A DNA stretch of 64,000 nt from Candidatus Alistipes stercoravium (GTDB taxonomy: Bacteria > Bacteroidota > Bacteroidia > Bacteroidales > Rikenellaceae), in assembly GCA_019119615.1 (NCBI GenBank), contig DWWQ01000006.1, forward strand, positions 4,079 to 68,078. The letters run 5' to 3'. Below the pieces are notes generated by a model. It saw nothing but the letters and a program-made list of their open reading frames with translations. It was not told the DNA's origin and did no database searches. How positions within the stretch are numbered: position 1 is the first letter of the stretch; every line of letters starts with the position of its first letter. The translations under genes were made by a program, and so were the position numbers. Below, one piece after another: positions 42,700-60,631 of the stretch.

Positions 42700-44616
42700 T
42701 TATTTTACCTCCTCGAACTCGACATCCTCGGGCTGCGATTGTCCGTCGTTCGACTGCGCGCCCGTGTTGGCCTGCTGCTGGCCGGCGCCGGCGTTCTGCT
42801 GGGCACCCTGAGCCTGCTGCTGTGCGTAGATGTCCTGCGAGGCGGCCTGCCAGGCGGCGTTGAGCTCCGCGATGGCCGTGTCGATGGCTGCCACGTCGGC
42901 ATTTTTGTGTGCCTCCTTCAGCTTGCCCAGAGCCGTCTCGATGGCCGCCTTCTTGTCGGCAGGCAGCTTGTCGCCGTACTCCTTGAGCTGCTTCTCGGTG
43001 GCAAAGATGTTCGAGTCGGCGGCGTTGATCTTATCAATACGCTCCTTCTCGGCCTTGTCCTTCGCCTCGTTGGCCTTCGCCTCGTCGCGCATGCGCTGGA
43101 TCTCCTGCTCGGTCAGACCCGACGATGCCTCGATTCGGATCTTCTGCTCCTTGCCCGTGCCCTTGTCCTTGGCCGAAACGTTCAGAATGCCGTTGGCGTC
43201 GATATCGAACGTTACCTCAATCTGCGGCACACCGCGCGGTGCGGCCGGAATGCCGTCGAGGTGGAAGCGGCCGATCGACTTGTTGTCGCGGGCCAGCGGA
43301 CGCTCACCCTGGCAGACGTTGATCTCTACGGAAGGCTGGTTGTCGGCTGCCGTCGAGAAGACTTCCGACTTGCGCGTCGGGATCGTCGTGTTGGCGTCGA
43401 TGAGCTTCGTCATCACACCGCCCAGCGTCTCGATACCGAGCGACAGCGGCGTAACGTCGAGCAGCAGCACATCCTTCACTTCGCCCGTCAGCACACCACC
43501 CTGGATGGCGGCGCCGATAGCTACGACCTCGTCGGGGTTCACCGACTTGTTGGGCGTCTTGCCGAAGAAGTCGGCGACGATCTTCTGGATGGCGGGGATA
43601 CGCGTCGAACCGCCCACGAGGATCACCTCGTCGATCTGCGAAGCCTCCAGACCCGCATCACGCAGCGCCAGCTTGCACGGCTCGACGGTCTTGCGGATCA
43701 GATGGTCGCACAACTGCTCGAACTTGGCGCGCGTCAGCGTCATCACCAGGTGCTGCGGAATGCCGTTCACGGGCATGATGTACGGCAGGTTGATCTCCGT
43801 CGTCGTCGAAGACGAGAGTTCGATCTTCGCCTTCTCGGCAGCCTCCTTCAGTCGCTGCAGCGCCATCGGGTCCTCACGCAGGTCGATGCCGTGCTCGGCC
43901 TTGAAGGCCTCAGCCATATAGTCGATCAGCACATGGTCGAAGTCATCGCCTCCGAGGTGCGTATCACCGTTCGTGGACTTCACCTCGAAGACGCCGTCGC
44001 CCAGCTCCAGAATCGAGATATCGAACGTACCGCCGCCCAGGTCGTACACGGCGATCTTCATGTCGTTCTGCTTCTTGTCCAGACCGTAGGCCAGGGCTGC
44101 GGCCGTAGGCTCGTTGATGATTCGGCGAACCTTCAGACCCGCGATCTCGCCGGCCTCCTTCGTAGCCTGACGCTGCGAATCGGAGAAGTAGGCCGGAACC
44201 GTGATCACCGCCTCGGTAACCTCCTGGCCCAAATAATCCTCGGCCGTCTTCTTCATCTTCTGAAGAATGATCGCCGAGATCTCCTGCGGCGTATAGAGAC
44301 GTCCGTCGATATCGACACGCGGCGTGTTGTTGTCGCCACGGACGATCGAATAGGGAGCACGGGCGATGTCGGCCGTTACCTTGTCGTAGGTCTCACCCAT
44401 GAAACGCTTGATCGAGAAGACCGTGCGCTTGGGGTTCGTGATCGCCTGACGCTTGGCGGGATCTCCCACCTTGCGCTCCCCGTCGGCCGTGAATGCCACG
44501 ACAGACGGCGTCGTGCGGTGTCCCTCCGAGTTGGGGATAACCACGGGCTCGTTGCCCTCCATCACTGCCACGCAGGAGTTCGTAGTTCCTAAATCGATAC
44601 CAATAATCTTTGCCAT
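42700..44616 (-). CDS. dnaK: Chaperone DnaK (Hsp70)
   Basis: [46 protein letters not shown]. Confidence 0.99.
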
Positions 44617-44708
44617 AACTGTACTATGTTTTTAATTGTTCTTTTTCCGTTGTTGCTCCGCACCCCTTCGCTCTCGGGCTCCGGTCGTCGGATACGCCCT
44701 ACCTTCAA

Positions 44709-44723
44709 ACAAAGGTTGTACCA
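44709..44723 (-). promoter_or_regulatory. Candidate sigma54-type -24/-12 promoter of dnaK (TGGTACAACCTTTGT)
   Basis: GG-N10-GT spacing versus consensus TGGCACG-N4-TTGC. No TAnnTTTG box found on the minus strand in 44617-44980. Confidence 0.5.
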
Positions 44724-44735
44724 AACAGAAATTAC

Positions 44736-44809
44736 TGCCAATTTGACAGCCCGATGACAAAAAAACGGGCCGACCGACCTCCGACATCCGGCATTTTGGC
44801 ATTTTGGCA
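44736..44809. promoter_or_regulatory. Cluster of (T/C)GNCA pentamers upstream of dnaK, candidate operator/enhancer
   Basis: TGCCA 44736, TGACA 44744, TGACA 44755, CGACA 44782, CGGCA 44789, TGGCA 44797, TGGCA 44805. Several are in 8-bp phase (GGCATTTT repeated). Confidence 0.5.
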
Positions 44810-44910
44810 GGACCCGCCATCGAAGCGGCTCACACCCGTGATGGATCCGCACGGATACCCGCCCAGCAGCGGGCTCAATATATAAAGGAGTGATTGGCTC
44901 TGCCGAAGAG

Positions 44911-44945
44911 AAAAAAATACCGGAACCCCTTTCCGGATTCCGGTA
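44911..44945 (-). terminator. Terminator of the small HTH gene
   Basis: A7-TACCGGAA...TTCCGGTA. Confidence 0.75.
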
Positions 44946-44980
44946 CTGCATCCGGCCGATTGCCGGACAAATCCTATGTC

Positions 44981-45226
44981 TTATCGCTGCTGCTCGCTCA
45001 AGATGCGCATCGCCACATCGAGTATCGTCGTATCATCGAGCGTTACCACGCCGCCGTCCGGTCCCGGTTCGAAATGAACCCCGACGCACTCCTTCGCCTC
45101 GTGGCTGCCTCCGAAATAGTTGCGGACAGTTTCTACATCGATTCCCAGTTCATCTGCAATGCGTTGCGAACTGCCGCTCGGCAGCCGGTCCTTGATACGA
45201 CGCAACTCGTTAAATGTGATAATCAT
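44981..45226 (-). CDS. Small conserved Bacteroidales HTH-type DNA-binding protein (81 aa)
   Basis: ITFNELRRIKDRLPSGS..RIADELGIDVETVRNYFGG helix-turn-helix pattern, then EPGPDGG...LDDTTIL. Confidence 0.8.
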   Translation of the reverse strand: MIITFNELRRIKDRLPSGSSQRIADELGIDVETVRNYFGGSHEAKECVGVHFEPGPDGGVVTLDDTTILDVAMRILSEQQR

Positions 45227-45460
45227 ATCAGTTGAATTTTAGGTGTTACACTTCTGCACAACTAAATTAATACAATTTTGCGGATTTACAAAATTTCTGC
45301 CCGAAAAAGTGGCACAAAACCGGAAAAACCGGTTACGCATCGAAAAAAACCGAAAGCAGGACGAAACGGCACGGGAGAAATGCATCCGTCCGCATCGGAA
45401 TCGTCTTCCGGGGCGGTACCGGACCGCAATGCCTCCCTCCGAAGATAGATCCGGGCGGAC

Positions 45461-55427: not shown

Positions 55428-55802
55428 CTACTCGGCCGAAGTTTCGGCAGGCTCCGCAGCGGGCTGCTCCGCGGGAAGCTCGGCCTGCGGCATCGCGGGA
55501 ACCGCCTCCGTGTTGAGCATCTGCTCCTGAAGAGCCTTGGCATCCTTCGAGATCTCCGAATTGCTCTCCGCAACGAGGCCCTTGTCCATGGCCAGCGTGG
55601 CAACAAGGCTCAAAACCACAATGGCGATGGCCATCGTCCAGGTAAACTTCTCCAGAAAATTCGTCGTCTCACGCACGCCCATCACCTGATTCGACGCGCC
55701 GAAGTTGGCGGCCATGCCGCTCTTGGGATTCTGCACCAGTACCGCGAGAATGATCAGAACGCTCGCAATAAGTATCAGGGCAATGCAAATCGTGTATAAC
55801 AT
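55428..55802 (-). CDS. secG: Preprotein translocase subunit SecG
   Basis: VLVQNPKSG, FGASNQVMGVRETTNFLEKFTW, 2 TM helices. Confidence 0.93.
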   Translation of the reverse strand: MLYTICIALILIASVLIILAVLVQNPKSGMAANFGASNQVMGVRETTNFLEKFTWTMAIAIVVLSLVATLAMDKGLVAESNSEISKDAKALQEQMLNTEAVPAMPQAELPAEQPAAEPAETSAE

Positions 55803-55817
55803 ATCTCAGTCTTTTAA

Positions 55818-56309
55818 TTATTGTTTTTCGGTTTTTTCAATAAGTTCGGCAAAGTAAATACTTTTTTCGGGATTTAGCAAACTTAATTTGCGATAAATTG
55901 CCACAGCCTCGTCGCGGAGTCCCTGCGAAAGGTAAACCGCAGCCAGCTCCTCGCTTACGAGTTCGTCCTCGTCGTCCAGATCGGGAGCCGTACGCACCTC
56001 CGTATCGGGAGCCGTCTCGTCGGCGACGATACGCAGGTTCTCCTCCTTCAGGAAACGGTCGATAACCTCCCCGGACGTAAGGTGCGTCAGCGCATCGGCA
56101 TCCACGGCCGCACGGCACAGGGAGCTCTCCCCGCGCCACGGGGCCATGAGCCCGACCAGCGGATCCGTCTCTCCCGAAAGCCGTTCGGCAGCGGCATGCA
56201 GCGGAAGGAACCACGCATAACGCTCCAGCGCCGCGGCAAGTTCTTCGGCGGAGGGTTGCGACGCCCCGCAGGGCGAAAGCAGATAGTCGCGCAATCCGGC
56301 CATGGGCAT
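55818..56309 (-). CDS. Conserved TPR-like protein between lptE and secG
   Basis: IDRFL, LVSEELAAVYLSQG...A..IY.KLSL.NPEKS.YFA. ATG couples to the lptE stop (TGATG). Confidence 0.75.
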   Translation of the reverse strand: MPMAGLRDYLLSPCGASQPSAEELAAALERYAWFLPLHAAAERLSGETDPLVGLMAPWRGESSLCRAAVDADALTHLTSGEVIDRFLKEENLRIVADETAPDTEVRTAPDLDDEDELVSEELAAVYLSQGLRDEAVAIYRKLSLLNPEKSIYFAELIEKTEKQ

Positions 56310-56818
56310 CACCAGTTGGAGGCCGAAGCCTGGAAGATATCCGTTACGATCTTATCGACGATGACCGGGATGAGCGTGCCCTCCACCTCCGTAAGCAGCT
56401 GCGTCGAGTCGTAGTCCTCGTAGGCCGAGAAGGTGCGGTTGAACGACATGCTGTCGTCGAGGGCATTCGTGAAACGCACCTTGACGGTGATCGTCAGGCG
56501 GTTCAGCAAGGCATATTCGTCGCTCGACACGGACGAGGTCGTCGAGGTGTAGTTCGTGATCTCACCCTCGAAGGCGAAGTCGCCGCCCTCATCGACCTGC
56601 GTCAGGCGCGTACGCCGCGAAAACATATCCACCAGCGCATCGGTAAGCGTCGAACTCAAAATCGGCGACACCATCGTCGCGTTATTGGGGAAATAGGCCA
56701 CCGAGAAGGTCTTGGCATCGGGAGGAATCGACGCTCCCGACAACGAATACTTGATGGCCACGCCGCAGCCGGCGAAGAGCGCCGTGCAGCAGAGCATTAT
56801 GAGCAGCTTGAATTTCAT
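56309..56818 (-). CDS. lptE: LPS assembly lipoprotein LptE family
   Basis: LFAGC lipobox, YSLSGASI, FEGEITNY, RLTITVKVRF, FNRTFS. Confidence 0.88.
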   Translation of the reverse strand: MKFKLLIMLCCTALFAGCGVAIKYSLSGASIPPDAKTFSVAYFPNNATMVSPILSSTLTDALVDMFSRRTRLTQVDEGGDFAFEGEITNYTSTTSSVSSDEYALLNRLTITVKVRFTNALDDSMSFNRTFSAYEDYDSTQLLTEVEGTLIPVIVDKIVTDIFQASASNW

Positions 56819-56821
56819 ACG

Positions 56822-58033
56822 TCAGTTTTCGGTTATTCCCAGTTCCTTGATCTTGCGGTAGAGCGTGCGTTCCGACATGAAGAGCTCCGCGGCAGCCTCG
56901 CGCCGGCGGCCGTTGTTGCGGCGCAGGGCGCGGATGATCTGCTCGCGCTGCATGTCCGCCTTGGTCTTCTCGCGCGGCGCCTCGTCGGTAACCTCCTCGC
57001 TCTCGGCAAACTCCGCAGCCGGCCGGGCCGGCTCCAGCGAGCTCTGGGCCGTCGTGGGAAGCAGCGCCTTGATATCGTGCTGGGGTTCCGCACGGTGTCC
57101 CGATGCCTGCTGCATCAGTTCGGTCATCATCCGCTTGAGGTCGTTGATGTCGGCCCGCATGTCGAAGAGCACCTTGTAGAGCAGTTCGCGCTCGGTGGAC
57201 ATGTCGTCGTCAAAACGCGGAGCACCCGCAGCCACGGGAGCACCGGCCTCCTGGGGCGGCAGGTAGCGCGAAAGTATCTCGGAGGTGATGACCCGCGCCG
57301 GCTCGATGGCCGAGATCTGTTCGGCGACATTCTTCAGCTGGCGGATATTGCCCCGCCAGTAGTAGTGCATCAGCATCTGCCGCGCCCCCTCGTCGAGCGT
57401 TACGGCCGGCATGCGGTACTGCACGGCGACATCGGCGGCAAATTTGCGGAACAGCAGCGGAATGTCCTCGGGACGCTCGCGCAGCGACGGCACGGAGATG
57501 GGCACCGTGCTCAAGCGATAGAAAAGGTCTTCGCGGAAACGTCCCTGAACGATAGCCTCCTGGAGGTTCACGTTCGTGGCCGCGACGACCCGTACGTTGG
57601 TCTTCTGCACCTTCGACGAACCCACGCGGATAAACTCCCCGGTCTGCAGCACGCGCAGCAGGCGCGCCTGGGTCGAATGCGGCAGTTCGGCAACCTCGTC
57701 CAGGAAGATCGTGCCTCCGTCGGCCTCCTCGAAATAACCCTTGCGGGCCTCCGTAGCACCGGTGAAGGCCCCCTTTTCATGTCCGAAAAGTTCCGAGTCG
57801 ATCGTACCCTCGGGAATCGCCGCACAGTTCACGGCGATGTACTTGTTATGCTTGCGCGCGGAATAGGCATGGATCACCTGCGGGAAAAACTCCTTGCCCA
57901 CACCGCTCTCGCCCGTTACGAGAACCGTCAGATCGGTGGGCGCCACGCGCAGAGCCACCTCCAGCGCCCGGTCGAGCAGTTCCGAGGTGCCGATGATGCC
58001 GAAACGTTGTTTTACGGTTGCGATTTCTGTCAT
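56822..58033 (-). CDS. Sigma54-dependent AAA+ activator (bEBP) with Fis-type HTH and no N-terminal sensor domain
   Basis: TGESGVGKE, VNCAAIP, ELFGHEKGAFTGA, FLDEV, FREDLFYRL, WRGNIRQL, SERTLYRK. Confidence 0.93.
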   Translation of the reverse strand: MTEIATVKQRFGIIGTSELLDRALEVALRVAPTDLTVLVTGESGVGKEFFPQVIHAYSARKHNKYIAVNCAAIPEGTIDSELFGHEKGAFTGATEARKGYFEEADGGTIFLDEVAELPHSTQARLLRVLQTGEFIRVGSSKVQKTNVRVVAATNVNLQEAIVQGRFREDLFYRLSTVPISVPSLRERPEDIPLLFRKFAADVAVQYRMPAVTLDEGARQMLMHYYWRGNIRQLKNVAEQISAIEPARVITSEILSRYLPPQEAGAPVAAGAPRFDDDMSTERELLYKVLFDMRADINDLKRMMTELMQQASGHRAEPQHDIKALLPTTAQSSLEPARPAAEFAESEEVTDEAPREKTKADMQREQIIRALRRNNGRRREAAAELFMSERTLYRKIKELGITEN

Positions 58034-58069
58034 TGCCAAAAAAGTTGGGGTCCGTGGATCCGCGGGCGG

Positions 58070-58927
58070 TTACATCGGTTGCTCCGAAGTATCCCCGGCG
58101 GCAGGAGTTTCGGATGCCTCCGGTGCCGCAGATGCCGGCGCGGAGAAATCGATCCACTCCGCCTCCTCGAGCTGCCGCTCGCGCATGTCGCGGTAATAAC
58201 CGTAGCCGATGGCGGCAAGTGCCAGCACGGCGGCGATCACGGCGATCCAGATGAAACGATCGGCCCTCCGGCGGGGAGCCCGTCCGACATAGGTATAGGC
58301 ATTGGTGTTCTTCGGCGGCTTGCCGTAGCGCAGACCCCGGACCGAAGGATCGGGATTCATCTTGGCCGAAGGCGAGATATGCGGCTCGGTAAAGGCCGCC
58401 GTCGCGGAGCGTTTCACAGGACGGGGCTCCGGAAAATCCGGGGAAGAACCGATATTTTCAGACGGCGCAGGGACGGCGGCAGCCGGCGCGGGTTCCGCAT
58501 GGGATTGCGGGATATCGGCCGGCCGGGGATCGGCCGCAGGCGCTGTCGGAGATTCGGGTTGCGGCGGTTCCGGCTCGGCAGACTGTGCAGCCGCGGCCCC
58601 TTCGAGCAGCGCCGGATCCGGTTCGTAACGGAAGGCGATGGTCCCGTTCGCCCCGGGACACAGTGTGCCGAAACCGGGCAGCGGGCACGGTGTGCCGTGT
58701 TCAACGGCATGGCGCACTTCGAAGACGAAACGGTCGATCTCGCCGGCGGCCTCCAGTTCATGGACGCCCTCGGCCTGCAGCAGGCCGCGCAGCACGCCGT
58801 CGTCGCGCTTGAGCAGTTCGGAGAAGAGCACCGTATGCTCCGGCTCCTTGACGATGAAGGCCCCGAGTTGGGGAACAACGAGGCGCTTGTGCGTCTCGAG
58901 ATATTGCGATATGATACGAATGAGCAC
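58070..58927 (-). CDS. HU-CCDC81-like N-terminal domain protein with Pro/Ala linker and C-terminal TM anchor
   Basis: ISQYLETHKRLVVPQLGAF, LPGFGTL, IAF (HU-like), TM FIWIAVIAAVLALAAIGYGYY. GTG start, -7 box TAATTTTG at 58957-58964. Confidence 0.7.
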   Translation of the reverse strand: MLIRIISQYLETHKRLVVPQLGAFIVKEPEHTVLFSELLKRDDGVLRGLLQAEGVHELEAAGEIDRFVFEVRHAVEHGTPCPLPGFGTLCPGANGTIAFRYEPDPALLEGAAAAQSAEPEPPQPESPTAPAADPRPADIPQSHAEPAPAAAVPAPSENIGSSPDFPEPRPVKRSATAAFTEPHISPSAKMNPDPSVRGLRYGKPPKNTNAYTYVGRAPRRRADRFIWIAVIAAVLALAAIGYGYYRDMRERQLEEAEWIDFSAPASAAPEASETPAAGDTSEQPM

Positions 58928-59236
58928 GATCGGAATCTCGTTGGTTTATCAGGGTTCAAAATTACCTCTTTCCCGCCAAAAAAACAAGCATCCGGGCCAT
59001 TCCCTGCACAAAAAGCCCGAAAAAAGAGCCGCCCGCAAAGACCGCACGGAGCATCGCACGGCAATGCGGAGGGCCGAAATGCGATTTTCCTGAAAAATAT
59101 TCGTACGGGAAGTTGGTTAAACCAAAAATATTCACCTATTTTGCATCGCAAAATCCCGGAAAATCCGGGCGAGCTACTTCGGCCGATTTCAGACAATGTA
59201 GCGAAGCCGGATTGACAAAAACCCTACGAACGAAAA

Positions 59237-60631
59237 ATGAAAGACAAGTACATTGACCTGATCGAACAGTCGTTCGACTTCCCGCAGGACGAGTTTTCCG
59301 TCGAAGACAGCGAGCTGCTCTTCCACGACATCCCGCTCATGGAGCTGATCAAACAGTACGGCACACCGCTCAAGATCACCTACCTGCCGAAGATCTCCCA
59401 GCAGATCAACCGCGCCAAACGCATGTTCAATGTGGCAATGGCCAAGGTCGATTACAAGGGCTCGTACAACTACTGCTACTGCACCAAGTCGAGCCACTTC
59501 TCGTTCGTCCTCGAGGAGGCCATGAAGAACGACATCCACCTCGAAACCTCCTCGGCCTACGACATCCACATCATCAACGCCCTCTACGACGGCGGAATCA
59601 TCGACAAGGACCGCTACATCGTCTGCAACGGATTCAAACGCCCGCAGTATGTCGAAAATATCGCCCAGCTCGTGAACGACGGATTCACGAACACGATACC
59701 CGTGCTCGACAACAAAGAGGAACTCGACCTCTTCGAAGACGCCTTCACCAAGAAGTGCAAGGTCGGCATCCGCATCGCCTGCGAGGAGGAGCCCAAGTTC
59801 GACTTCTACACCTCGCGCCTCGGAATCCGCTACAACGATATCGTGGACTTCTACAAGGCCAAACTGAAAAACAGCAAGAAATTCCAGCTCAAGATGCTGC
59901 ACTTCTTCATCAACACCGGTATCAAGGATACGGCCTACTACTGGAACGAGTTGTCGAAGTGCATGAACGTCTATTGCGAACTGAAGGCCATCTGCCCCGA
60001 GCTGGACAGCCTCAACATCGGCGGCGGCTTCCCGATCAAGAACTCCCTGAACTTCGAATACGACTACGAGTACCTCACCGAGGAGATCGTCGCCCAGATC
60101 AAGAACATCTGCCAGCGGAACGGCATCGAGGAACCCAACATCTTCACCGAATTCGGCTCGTTCACCGTCGGCGAAAGCGGCGCTTCGCTCTACTCGATCG
60201 TCAATCAGAAGCAGCAGAACGACCGCGAGAACTGGTACATGATCGACTCGTCGTTCATCACGACCCTGCCCGACACCTGGGGAATCAATCAGCGCTACAT
60301 CATGCTGGCCATCAACAACTGGGACAAGGAGTACCAGCGCGTATTCCTCGGAGGACTGACCTGCGACAGCGAGGATTTCTACAACTCCGAGTGCCACACG
60401 AACGCCATCTTCCTCCCCAAACTCGAGAAGGGAAACACGCAGTATATCGGTTTCTTCCACACGGGAGCCTACCAGGAGTCGCTCGGCGGATTCGGCGGCA
60501 TCCAGCACTGTCTGATCCCCGCGCCGAAACACATCATCATCGACCGCGACAAGTCGGACAACGAATACTACACGCGACTCTTCGCCAAGGAGCAGTCCTA
60601 CCGTTCGATGCTCCGCATCCTCGGGTATTGA
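59237..60631 (+). CDS. speA: Arginine decarboxylase (Bacteroidota short type, fold III PLP)
   Basis: YCYCTKSSH, LETSS, CNGFK, SRLG, LHFF, NIGGGFP, TEFGSF, GGLTCDS, GAYQE. Confidence 0.92.
   Translation: MKDKYIDLIEQSFDFPQDEFSVEDSELLFHDIPLMELIKQYGTPLKITYLPKISQQINRAKRMFNVAMAKVDYKGSYNYCYCTKSSHFSFVLEEAMKNDIHLETSSAYDIHIINALYDGGIIDKDRYIVCNGFKRPQYVENIAQLVNDGFTNTIPVLDNKEELDLFEDAFTKKCKVGIRIACEEEPKFDFYTSRLGIRYNDIVDFYKAKLKNSKKFQLKMLHFFINTGIKDTAYYWNELSKCMNVYCELKAICPELDSLNIGGGFPIKNSLNFEYDYEYLTEEIVAQIKNICQRNGIEEPNIFTEFGSFTVGESGASLYSIVNQKQQNDRENWYMIDSSFITTLPDTWGINQRYIMLAINNWDKEYQRVFLGGLTCDSEDFYNSECHTNAIFLPKLEKGNTQYIGFFHTGAYQESLGGFGGIQHCLIPAPKHIIIDRDKSDNEYYTRLFAKEQSYRSMLRILGY

What the first reader, a model, noticed from the sequence alone, without database searches (positions are those of the whole stretch)
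44709..44809. dnaK appears to use a sigma54-like promoter with a repeated (T/C)GNCA upstream array instead of the housekeeping promoter or CIRCE
Seen: about 20 genes in this window have a TAnnTTTG -7 box, but I found none on the minus strand between the HTH-gene terminator (44911-44945) and the dnaK start, and no CIRCE repeat. Instead there is TGGTACAACCTTTGT (44723-44709), with GG-N10-GT spacing, about 90 bp upstream of the ATG. Immediately upstream are seven (T/C)GNCA pentamers, partly in 8-bp phase (TGCCAAAATGCCAAAATGCCG on the minus strand). Known: sigma54 promoters are TGGCACG-N4-TTGC and need an AAA+ activator bound upstream. Inference: an RpoN-controlled heat-shock circuit, unlike the sigma32, HrcA, CtsR and HspR paradigms. 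The -12 GC is GT here, which is a real mismatch.
Basis: partly seen in the sequence, partly recalled or inferred. Interest (0 to 1): 0.62.

Follow-up and report, generated by a model that had tools for sequence, protein, structure and literature searches.

The report
Sigma-54 heat-shock promoter of dnaK
The main chaperone gene dnaK of this gut Alistipes very probably has a sigma-54 promoter with a phased array of TGNCA activator sites, shared with its other chaperone genes; this wiring is already published for the phylum, but its activator and enhancer are not described in the papers I could search.

Summary
TGGTACAACCTTTGT lies at 44723-44709 on the minus strand, 92 nt before the dnaK ATG. 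There is no TAnnTTTG box and no CIRCE half-site between the upstream terminator and dnaK. Five exact TGNCA pentamers, plus two degenerate ones, lie just upstream.

The -24/-12 match alone is no better than chance. Its weight comes from context:
- The same box precedes groES-groEL, htpG, clpB, grpE-dnaJ and hsp20 in this genome.
- It is kept before dnaK in 78 of 79 Alistipes species, 23 of them with the canonical C at -12.
- It is present in all 16 other families of class Bacteroidia sampled.
- rpoN is present; hrcA and rpoH are absent.

The pentamers sit at fixed, helically phased offsets from the -24 box in all 78 species.

A sensor-less activator encoded in the window (56822-58033) has an ortholog in all 106 Bacteroidota genomes sampled. 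It is the only such activator in a 0.52-Mb endosymbiont-size genome that keeps both the promoter and the palindrome. That makes it the likely regulator, still untested.

Sigma-54 promoters at these genes were mapped in Flavobacterium psychrophilum (2021) and predicted across the phylum (2025).

The parts
42700..44616 (-). dnaK coding sequence (638 aa), monocistronic
   Evidence: ORF list. 88-100% identical to the DnaK of 80 Alistipes genomes. The downstream genes are convergent.
44617..44697 (-). Predicted 81-nt 5' UTR. It starts at a conserved GCGT (44697-44694), forms a stem-loop near the 5' end, and ends in an A-rich leader.
   Evidence: The start is inferred as 12 nt after the -12 position. 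GCGT is conserved at this offset in most Alistipes species. The first 45 nt fold better than shuffles, with mean z of -1.56 over 78 species. No start site was mapped.
44709..44723 (-). Sigma-54-type promoter TGGTAC-AACCT-TTGT: -24 GG at 44722-44721, -12 G at 44710 followed by T
   Evidence: Conserved as TTTGG(T/C)A..N..TTTG(T/C/A) in 78 of 79 Alistipes species and as TGGCAY-N5-TTG(A/C/T) in 16 of 16 other Bacteroidia families.
44736..44759 (-). Proximal activator site. Three pentamers, TGTCA (44759), TGTCA (44748) and TGGCA (44740); the last two form the 13-bp palindrome TGTCAAATTGGCA. The site ends 12 nt before the TGG of the promoter.
   Evidence: The offsets of -36, -25 and -17 from the TGG are the three commonest proximal positions across 78 species. 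htpG has the same palindrome at the same spacing.
44782..44809 (-). Distal activator site: TGCCAAAATGCCAAAATGCCG, then TGTCG. It holds two exact and two degenerate pentamers in 8-bp phase, centred about 106 nt upstream of the predicted start.
   Evidence: The offsets of -86 and -78 fall in, or within 2 nt of, the conserved -77 to -81 and -88/-89 clusters.
44916..44947 (-). Intrinsic terminator of the upstream small gene. It insulates dnaK from read-through.
   Evidence: Terminator scan: 13-pair stem followed by a T run.
44981..45226 (-). Small 81-aa helix-turn-helix-like ORF upstream of dnaK. Probably not part of the core circuit.
   Evidence: 80-99% identical copies lie next to dnaK in 26 Alistipes loci. 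No Pfam or NCBIfam family. Absent from the reduced genome G074, which keeps the palindrome.
56822..58033 (-). Candidate activator: a 403-aa enhancer-binding protein with no N-terminal sensor domain (AAA+ sigma-54 interaction domain with GAFTGA, lid, linker, Fis-type HTH). It sits in an operon with lptE, a TPR-like gene and secG.
   Evidence: A full-length ortholog is present in 61 of 61 Bacteroidia genomes and 45 of 45 other Bacteroidota genomes. It is the only enhancer-binding protein found in the 0.52-Mb genome G074.

Best explanation
dnaK of this Alistipes is transcribed by RNA polymerase carrying sigma-54 (RpoN) from the -24/-12 promoter at 44723-44709, with a predicted start near 44697. 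It belongs to a chaperone regulon that also covers groES-groEL, htpG, clpB, grpE-dnaJ and hsp20. In Bacteroidota this regulon takes the place of the sigma-32 and HrcA/CIRCE systems.

Sigma-54 closed complexes cannot open DNA on their own, so an ATP-driven enhancer-binding protein must act from upstream. The helically phased TGNCA pentamers are its most likely binding sites. They form a proximal triple site at 44759-44736 and a distal site at 44809-44782, with the core unit TGNCA-N3-TGNCA. The most likely activator is the sensor-less enhancer-binding protein encoded at 56822-58033.

Shown here: the sequence elements, their regulon-wide recurrence, their positional conservation, and the gene inventory (rpoN present; hrcA and rpoH absent).

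Shown elsewhere: mapped sigma-54-type start sites at the orthologous genes of Flavobacterium psychrophilum.

Inferred: use of this promoter in Alistipes, heat induction, which protein binds the pentamers, and how stress is sensed. With no sensor domain, control by a partner protein or by chaperone titration is plausible but is speculation.
For: 1. hsp20 has one too, about 100 nt before its start codon. About 100 boxes of that quality occur among 1742 upstream regions, so 5 of 5 by chance is roughly 6e-7 (my arithmetic).
2. 78 of 79 Alistipes species keep the box before dnaK, and 23 have the canonical GC at -12. 16 of 16 other Bacteroidia families have it as well.
3. rpoN is present with its RpoN box, and there are four enhancer-binding proteins with sigma-54 interaction domains. 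No HrcA is found, and no RpoH match passes the cut-off. There is no TAnnTTTG box and no exact CIRCE half-site.
4. TGNCA pentamers sit at fixed offsets (-17, -25, -36, -48/-49, -58/-59, -68 to -70, -77 to -81, -88/-89) in 78 species. Every species has at least 3. The commonest spacings are 8, 11-12, 21, 32 and 42 nt. Four of the genome's 14 TGNCA-N3-TGNCA palindromes are at chaperone promoters.
5. The reduced genome G074 (0.52 Mb, 21% GC) keeps rpoN and a single enhancer-binding protein, the ortholog of the sensor-less one. It also keeps the -24/-12 box with a palindrome at dnaK and grpE.
6. Published work: mapped start sites with the sigma-54 motif SM4 at groESL, lon, dnaK, grpE-dnaJ, htpG and clpB in F. 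psychrophilum (PMC9723704), and a phylum-wide enrichment of predicted sigma-54 promoters at these genes (PMC12316311).
Against:
- The -12 dinucleotide is GT rather than GC, and the single-site match is within chance.
- dnaK needs basal expression, which requires a partly active activator at all times or an unrecognised second promoter.
- The proximal site is centred only about 45 nt upstream of the predicted start. That is unusually close for an enhancer and would also suit a repressor or an architectural protein.
- The grpE promoter has no clear pentamer array in its short intergenic region.
- The activator is assigned from phyletic pattern alone. Its ortholog is universal in the phylum, so no co-loss test is possible.
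Confidence: 0.8

Rival explanations
1. The promoter is sigma-54 dependent, but the TGNCA array is bound by something other than the sensor-less activator. Candidates are one of the three receiver-domain enhancer-binding proteins of this genome, a repressor or anti-activator acting at the promoter-proximal site, or an architectural protein.
For: The genome has three more enhancer-binding proteins. The proximal site abuts the -24 box, a position typical of repressors or bending proteins. A conserved small HTH-like gene sits next to dnaK in 26 Alistipes species. No binding data exist.
Against: The reduced genome G074 keeps the palindrome at dnaK and grpE but has only the sensor-less activator and lacks the small HTH gene. 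The receiver-domain paralogs have no clear one-to-one orthologs across the class, whereas the sensor-less one is present in 106 of 106 genomes.
Confidence: 0.17
2. The -24/-12 resemblance is fortuitous. dnaK would then be transcribed by the housekeeping sigma factor, or by an ECF sigma factor, from an unrecognised promoter, and the TGNCA sites would serve an ordinary activator or repressor.
For: The single match is within chance. The -12 element lacks the C. A one-mismatch TTTGTTTG overlaps the -12 box.
Against: The exact GG-N10-G spacing is invariant in 78 species while the flanks diverge. Relatives and the other chaperone genes have canonical TGGCAC-N5-TTGC. Start sites with this motif were mapped in F. 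psychrophilum. No TAnnTTTG is conserved anywhere in the region.
Confidence: 0.03

Closest known systems
Sigma-54 (motif SM4) proteostasis promoters of Flavobacterium psychrophilum (Guerin et al. 2021, ISME Commun, PMC9723704)
   Same: Same phylum and the same gene set (groES-groEL, dnaK, grpE-dnaJ, htpG, clpB), each behind a -24/-12 promoter. The authors also noted that the genome's few PF00158 activators probably split the regulon.
   Different: There the start sites were mapped experimentally; here they are only predicted. The passages of that paper I read name neither an enhancer sequence nor the responsible activator. This case is a high-GC gut Alistipes whose -12 box is mostly TTTGT.
Predicted sigma-54 chaperone regulons of Bacteroidota and Planctomycetota (PSSM survey, PLoS One 2025, PMC12316311)
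   Same: It reports enrichment of sigma-54 promoters at GroEL/ES, IbpA, GrpE, DnaJ, DnaK, HSP90, ClpB and Lon in Flavobacteriia, Bacteroidia and Cytophagia.
   Different: It is purely computational at the level of COG categories. The passages I read describe no enhancer motif, no positional analysis and no activator assignment.
PspF, the sensor-less enhancer-binding protein of the E. coli phage-shock system
   Same: The candidate activator starts directly with the AAA+ domain, aligned from position 1 of the PspF model, and ends in a Fis-type HTH. A sensor-less activator implies control in trans by a partner protein, as PspA controls PspF (established knowledge).
   Different: It scores 261.5 bits against a PspF cut-off of 443.55, so it is not a PspF equivalog. 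It has a linker of roughly 95 residues (between the lid, ending at 265, and the HTH, starting at 360). Its targets are cytoplasmic chaperones. No pspA-like partner was looked for.
Sigma-32 (RpoH) and HrcA/CIRCE heat-shock control
   Same: The same target genes and, presumably, the same physiological purpose.
   Different: A different mechanism: an enhancer-dependent sigma-54 promoter instead of an alternative sigma-70-family factor or a repressor. hrcA, rpoH and the exact CIRCE half-site are absent here.

Membership tests
Sigma-54 (RpoN) dependent promoter | GG at -24 and GC at -12 with exact 10-nt spacing (TGGCAC-N5-TTGC) | tested here: inconclusive
   GG-N10-G and 12 of the 15 consensus positions match, but the C of the GC is a T. 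At the orthologous site, 23 of 78 Alistipes species have C. The single match is within chance.
Sigma-54 (RpoN) dependent promoter | The genome encodes sigma-54 and at least one enhancer-binding protein with a GAFTGA loop | tested here: met
   rpoN is at G000:C62:25314-26732, with the Sigma54_DBD domain at 180 bits and the RpoN box. There are four PF00158 proteins. GAFTGA is present in the one encoded in the window.
Sigma-54 (RpoN) dependent promoter | Transcription starts about 12 nt after the -12 element and depends on rpoN and ATP hydrolysis by an activator | not testable with these tools
The only indirect support is a conserved GCGT at the predicted +1.
Sigma-54 (RpoN) dependent promoter | Upstream activator sites (enhancer) | tested here: met
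   Phased TGNCA pentamers lie at conserved offsets in 78 species and are enriched over the intergenic background. Binding itself was not tested.
Bacteroidota sigma-54 chaperone regulon (SM4 type) | The same -24/-12 motif precedes the core chaperone operons of the genome | tested here: met
   dnaK, groES-groEL, htpG, clpB, grpE-dnaJ and hsp20 all carry it.
Bacteroidota sigma-54 chaperone regulon (SM4 type) | The promoter is conserved at orthologous genes across the lineage | tested here: met
   78 of 79 Alistipes species, 16 of 16 other Bacteroidia families, and the reduced genome G074.
HrcA/CIRCE regulon | CIRCE inverted repeat upstream, and hrcA in the genome | tested here: not met
   No exact CIRCE half-site between 44617 and 44945. 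No PF01628 match in the genome, which is 92.7% complete.
Sigma-32 (RpoH) regulon | rpoH present | tested here: not met
   The only TIGR02392 match scores 163 bits against a cut-off of 323. I read it as the 287-aa housekeeping sigma factor.
PspF family (for the candidate activator) | Score above the curated equivalog cut-off; sensor-less architecture | tested here: not met
   The architecture is sensor-less like PspF, but the TIGR02974 score is 261.5 against 443.55, and no other NCBIfam equivalog is reached either.

The most novel reading that the evidence does not exclude
The sensor-less enhancer-binding protein at 56822-58033 would be the master activator of the chaperone (heat-shock) regulon of the whole phylum Bacteroidota. 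It has one ortholog in each of the 106 sampled genomes of the phylum and is the only one left in a 0.52-Mb endosymbiont-size genome. On this reading it assembles on helically phased TGNCA pentamers (unit TGNCA-N3-TGNCA). Having no sensor domain, its activity would be set in trans, for instance by titration by free DnaK or GroEL. That would make it a third general logic of bacterial heat-shock control, beside sigma-32 and the HrcA/HspR/CtsR repressors. I found no paper naming this activator or its enhancer in four further full-text searches. Other agents of this scan have reached the same idea independently from other genomes.
Probability: 0.5. Interest if true: 0.65.

Novelty: new member of a known kind. 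Interest (0 to 1): 0.4.

Why it matters
Bacteroidota are a dominant gut phylum, and how they control heat shock and protein quality has no textbook answer. This locus adds a high-GC Alistipes to the published evidence that the phylum drives its core chaperones from sigma-54 promoters.

The comparison of 78 species also sharpens what is still missing. It defines the enhancer (TGNCA pentamers at fixed, helically phased positions) and points to one specific sensor-less activator as the regulator. Both can be tested directly in Bacteroides or Flavobacterium, which have genetic tools. A confirmed activator would give a handle on stress tolerance of gut commensals and would show how a sigma-54 system can supply the constant basal expression that essential chaperones need.

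Tried and rejected
- Rfam scan of 44300-45400 at E up to 1: nothing found, so the leader is no known riboswitch or RNA thermometer.
- Sigma-70 consensus scan: two weak hits, at 45249-45222 and 44906-44877. Both are irrelevant for an organism that uses TAnnTTTG.
- First crude ORF caller: it mis-called genes in this 61% GC genome. I replaced it with a codon-usage caller.
- A matrix trained on Alistipes dnaK promoters alone was too dnaK-specific. htpG ranked 10th and grpE 14th of 1742, but groES and clpB dropped out of the top 25. The generic consensus score was more useful.
- Autoregulation of the activator operon, suggested by earlier notes on other genomes: not seen here. Upstream of 58034-59300 there is only a TAATTTTG housekeeping box, with no -24/-12 box and no palindrome.
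- The small HTH-like gene upstream of dnaK as the pentamer binder: unlikely, because it is absent from G074, which keeps the palindrome.
- Co-loss test for the activator in other classes of the phylum: impossible, because every sampled genome has an ortholog. In many of those classes the 400 nt before dnaK look like coding sequence (Hsp20-like by eye), so the promoter was out of reach.
- Reference 80 of PMC12316311, cited for sigma-54 dependence of grpE and groES in B. thetaiotaomicron, is a Blattabacterium genome paper and does not seem to support that sentence.

Full report
**What is there.** The window is contig C52:4079-68078 of a 2.12-Mb, 61% GC genome. Its DnaK is 100% identical to that of an Alistipes MAG and 88-96% identical to that of 79 other Alistipes or Rikenellaceae species. 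dnaK is at 42700-44616 on the minus strand.

Upstream of dnaK on that strand, in order, lie:
- an 81-aa ORF (44981-45226);
- that ORF's terminator (44947-44916);
- TGCCAAAATGCCAAAATGCCG (44809-44789);
- a T run;
- TGTCA-N6-TGTCAAATTGGCA (44759-44736);
- after 12 nt, TGGTACAACCTTTGT (44723-44709);
- an 81-nt predicted leader.

**Check of the observation.**
- No TAnnTTTG and no exact CIRCE half-site occur on the minus strand between 44617 and 44945. By contrast, 19 of 34 window genes with an upstream gap carry TAnnTTTG.
- Exactly five pentamers fit (T/C)GNCA, and two more are degenerate.
- The -24/-12 pattern on its own is not beyond chance: one match in the window, and 37 of 100 shuffles give at least one.
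- The pentamer cluster is beyond chance. There are five in 86 nt against a mean of 0.21, and only 0.05% of intergenic windows reach five.
- TGNCA-N3-TGNCA occurs only 14 times in the genome. Ten of those are intergenic, and four of the ten are at dnaK (two), groES and htpG.

**Regulon test within the genome.** I made codon-usage gene calls and scored all upstream regions with a generic sigma-54 consensus. A -24/-12 box precedes each of these genes (hsp20 distance is my count from the sequence):

| Gene | Box | Distance to start codon |
|---|---|---|
| clpB | TGGCAGGCGTTTTGC | 48 nt |
| htpG | TGGCACACCGTTTGT | 43 nt |
| groES | TGGCACACCTCTTGT | 58 nt |
| grpE | TGGTATGCAATTTGC | 35 nt |
| dnaK | TGGTACAACCTTTGT | 92 nt |
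| hsp20 | CGGCACGGAATTTGA | about 100 nt |

groEL follows groES, and dnaJ follows grpE. About 100 such boxes occur among 1742 upstream regions, so the chance of five out of five is near 6e-7 (my arithmetic).

TGNCA sites accompany the box at htpG, groES, clpB and hsp20:
- htpG has CTGTCAAAGTGGCAG with the same 11-nt gap to the TGG as dnaK.
- groES has TGCCATTTTGGCA.
- clpB has several pentamers.
- hsp20 has four TGACA repeats at a 10-11 bp period.

grpE has no clear array in its 67-nt intergenic region.

**Gene inventory.**
- rpoN is present and carries the RpoN box.
- Four proteins carry a full sigma-54 interaction domain.
- There is no HrcA match.
- The only RpoH-model match is far below the cut-off, and I read it as the housekeeping sigma factor.

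**Conservation.** In 78 of 79 Alistipes species with enough upstream sequence, a box TTTGG(T/C)A..N..TTTG(T/C/A) lies 53-147 nt before the dnaK ATG.
- The TGG, the A at position 5 and the TTTG are invariant, while the flanks diverge.
- The base after the -12 G is T in 43 species, C in 23 and A in 12.
- A conserved GCGT lies 13-16 nt after the -12 G, at the expected start (44697 here). In most species a stem-loop of variable sequence follows it.
- In a sample of the class, 16 of 16 other families have TGGCAY-N5-TTG(A/C/T) 37-71 nt before dnaK, again with TGNCA sites upstream.
- In other classes of the phylum the 400 nt before dnaK often look like coding sequence (Hsp20-like by eye), so nothing can be said there.

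**The enhancer.** I aligned the 78 Alistipes promoters on the TGG. Exact TGNCA pentamers pile up at -17, -25, -36, -48/-49, -58/-59, -68 to -70, -77 to -81 and -88/-89, and are almost absent in between.
- Every species has at least three, and the mean is 4.5.
- The commonest spacings are 8 nt (the 13-bp unit), 11-12, 21, 32 and 42 nt, which are multiples of a helical turn.
- In the window the pentamers are at -17, -25, -36, -78 and -86.

This is the signature of a protein array on one face of the DNA. Relative to the predicted start, the two sites are centred near -45 and -106. The proximal one is unusually close for an enhancer, which keeps a repressor or an architectural role open.

**The activator.** One of the four enhancer-binding proteins is encoded in the window (56822-58033, minus strand).
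- It has no N-terminal sensor or receiver domain. It consists of the AAA+ domain with GAFTGA, a lid, a linker of roughly 95 residues and a Fis-type HTH.
- It reaches no curated NCBIfam equivalog. PspF, NifA and NtrC all fall below their cut-offs.
- Only its AAA+ part matches solved structures.
- It lies in an operon with lptE, a TPR-like gene and secG.
- A full-length ortholog (46-62% identity, cleanly separated from paralogs) is present in 61 of 61 genomes of the class.
- A sensor-less best hit (40-53% identity) is present in 45 of 45 genomes of the other classes.

The most telling case is G074, a 0.52-Mb, 21% GC genome of endosymbiont size.
- It has rpoN and only this one enhancer-binding protein.
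- Its dnaK has CTGCCATTTAGTCAT upstream of TGGCACAAGTATTGAA.
- Its grpE has the perfect palindrome TGCCAATATGACA 13 nt before TGGCAAGAATTTTGA.
- Only five exact palindromes occur in its 519 kb.

This points to the sensor-less protein as the chaperone activator. It is still an inference from phyletic pattern, not a binding result. Unlike what earlier notes of this scan report for other genomes, its own operon here has a TAATTTTG housekeeping box and neither a -24/-12 box nor a palindrome.

**What is already known.**
- Guerin et al. 2021 (PMC9723704) mapped start sites in Flavobacterium psychrophilum. They found the -24/-12 motif SM4 before groES-groEL, lon, dnaK, grpE-dnaJ, htpG, clpB and skp, and remarked that three PF00158 proteins might split the regulon.
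- A 2025 matrix survey (PMC12316311) found these same chaperone families enriched for predicted sigma-54 promoters in Flavobacteriia, Bacteroidia, Cytophagia and Planctomycetota. Its reference for B. thetaiotaomicron looks mis-cited.
- Four further full-text searches found no paper that names the enhancer or the activator. The library is incomplete, so this does not prove absence.

**Verdict.** The circuit is a new member of a published kind. The residual interest lies in the sharply defined, phased TGNCA enhancer and in the candidate sensor-less activator. Use of the promoter, heat induction and activator binding remain untested here.

Noticed in passing
window 44617-44697 (minus strand): The predicted dnaK leader begins with a conserved GCGT. 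A stem-loop follows within the first 45 nt or so. Its sequence varies between Alistipes species, but a hairpin is kept in most (mean z of -1.56 against shuffles, and two thirds of 78 species below -1). It may be a 5' stabiliser. No Rfam family matches.
   Followed up: partly
window 44981-45226 (minus strand): This 81-aa ORF has a helix-turn-helix-like segment (SQRIADELGIDVETVRNYF) and no Pfam or NCBIfam family. It is unusually conserved, at 80-99% identity, and lies next to dnaK in 26 of 80 Alistipes loci, usually upstream and sometimes downstream or inverted. It is absent from the reduced genome G074. Its function is unknown.
   Followed up: partly
genome contig C8:14864-15100 (outside the window): The hsp20 promoter has four TGACA repeats at a 10-11 bp period (TGACAATTCATGACAATTTATGACATCTTCTGACAATC) upstream of CGGCACGGAATTTGA. 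It is the clearest direct-repeat version of the enhancer in this genome.
   Followed up: partly
genome contigs C8:6794, C62:7691, C32:77400, C20:5753, C2:50160 (outside the window): Near-consensus -24/-12 boxes lie 33-52 nt before non-chaperone genes: a lipoprotein, a membrane protein, a 69-aa protein, an outer-membrane beta-barrel-like protein and what looks, from its sequence alone, like a glutamate decarboxylase. None has a TGNCA array. They are presumably targets of the three receiver-domain activators.
   Followed up: no
window 55428-58927 (minus strand): The sensor-less activator sits in the gene string HU-like gene, activator, lptE, TPR-like gene, secG. A TAATTTTG housekeeping box lies at 58964, and there is no sigma-54 box or palindrome. 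Autoregulation, reported by earlier notes for other Bacteroidota, is therefore not evident here.
   Followed up: yes
PMC10994844 (B. thetaiotaomicron atlas): In B. thetaiotaomicron, expression of the TPR protein BT_1675 correlates at r = 0.91 with the chaperone gene set (DnaK, GroEL). A TPR-like gene also sits in the activator operon here. I did not check whether the two are related.
   Followed up: no
Alistipes loci L074, L079, L081, L083, L084, L086 (dnaK upstream): In one Alistipes subgroup the proximal palindrome reads TGCGTCA-N4-TGRCGCA, with a longer half-site and N4 instead of N3 spacing. This variation could be used for co-variation analysis with the activator's HTH.
   Followed up: no
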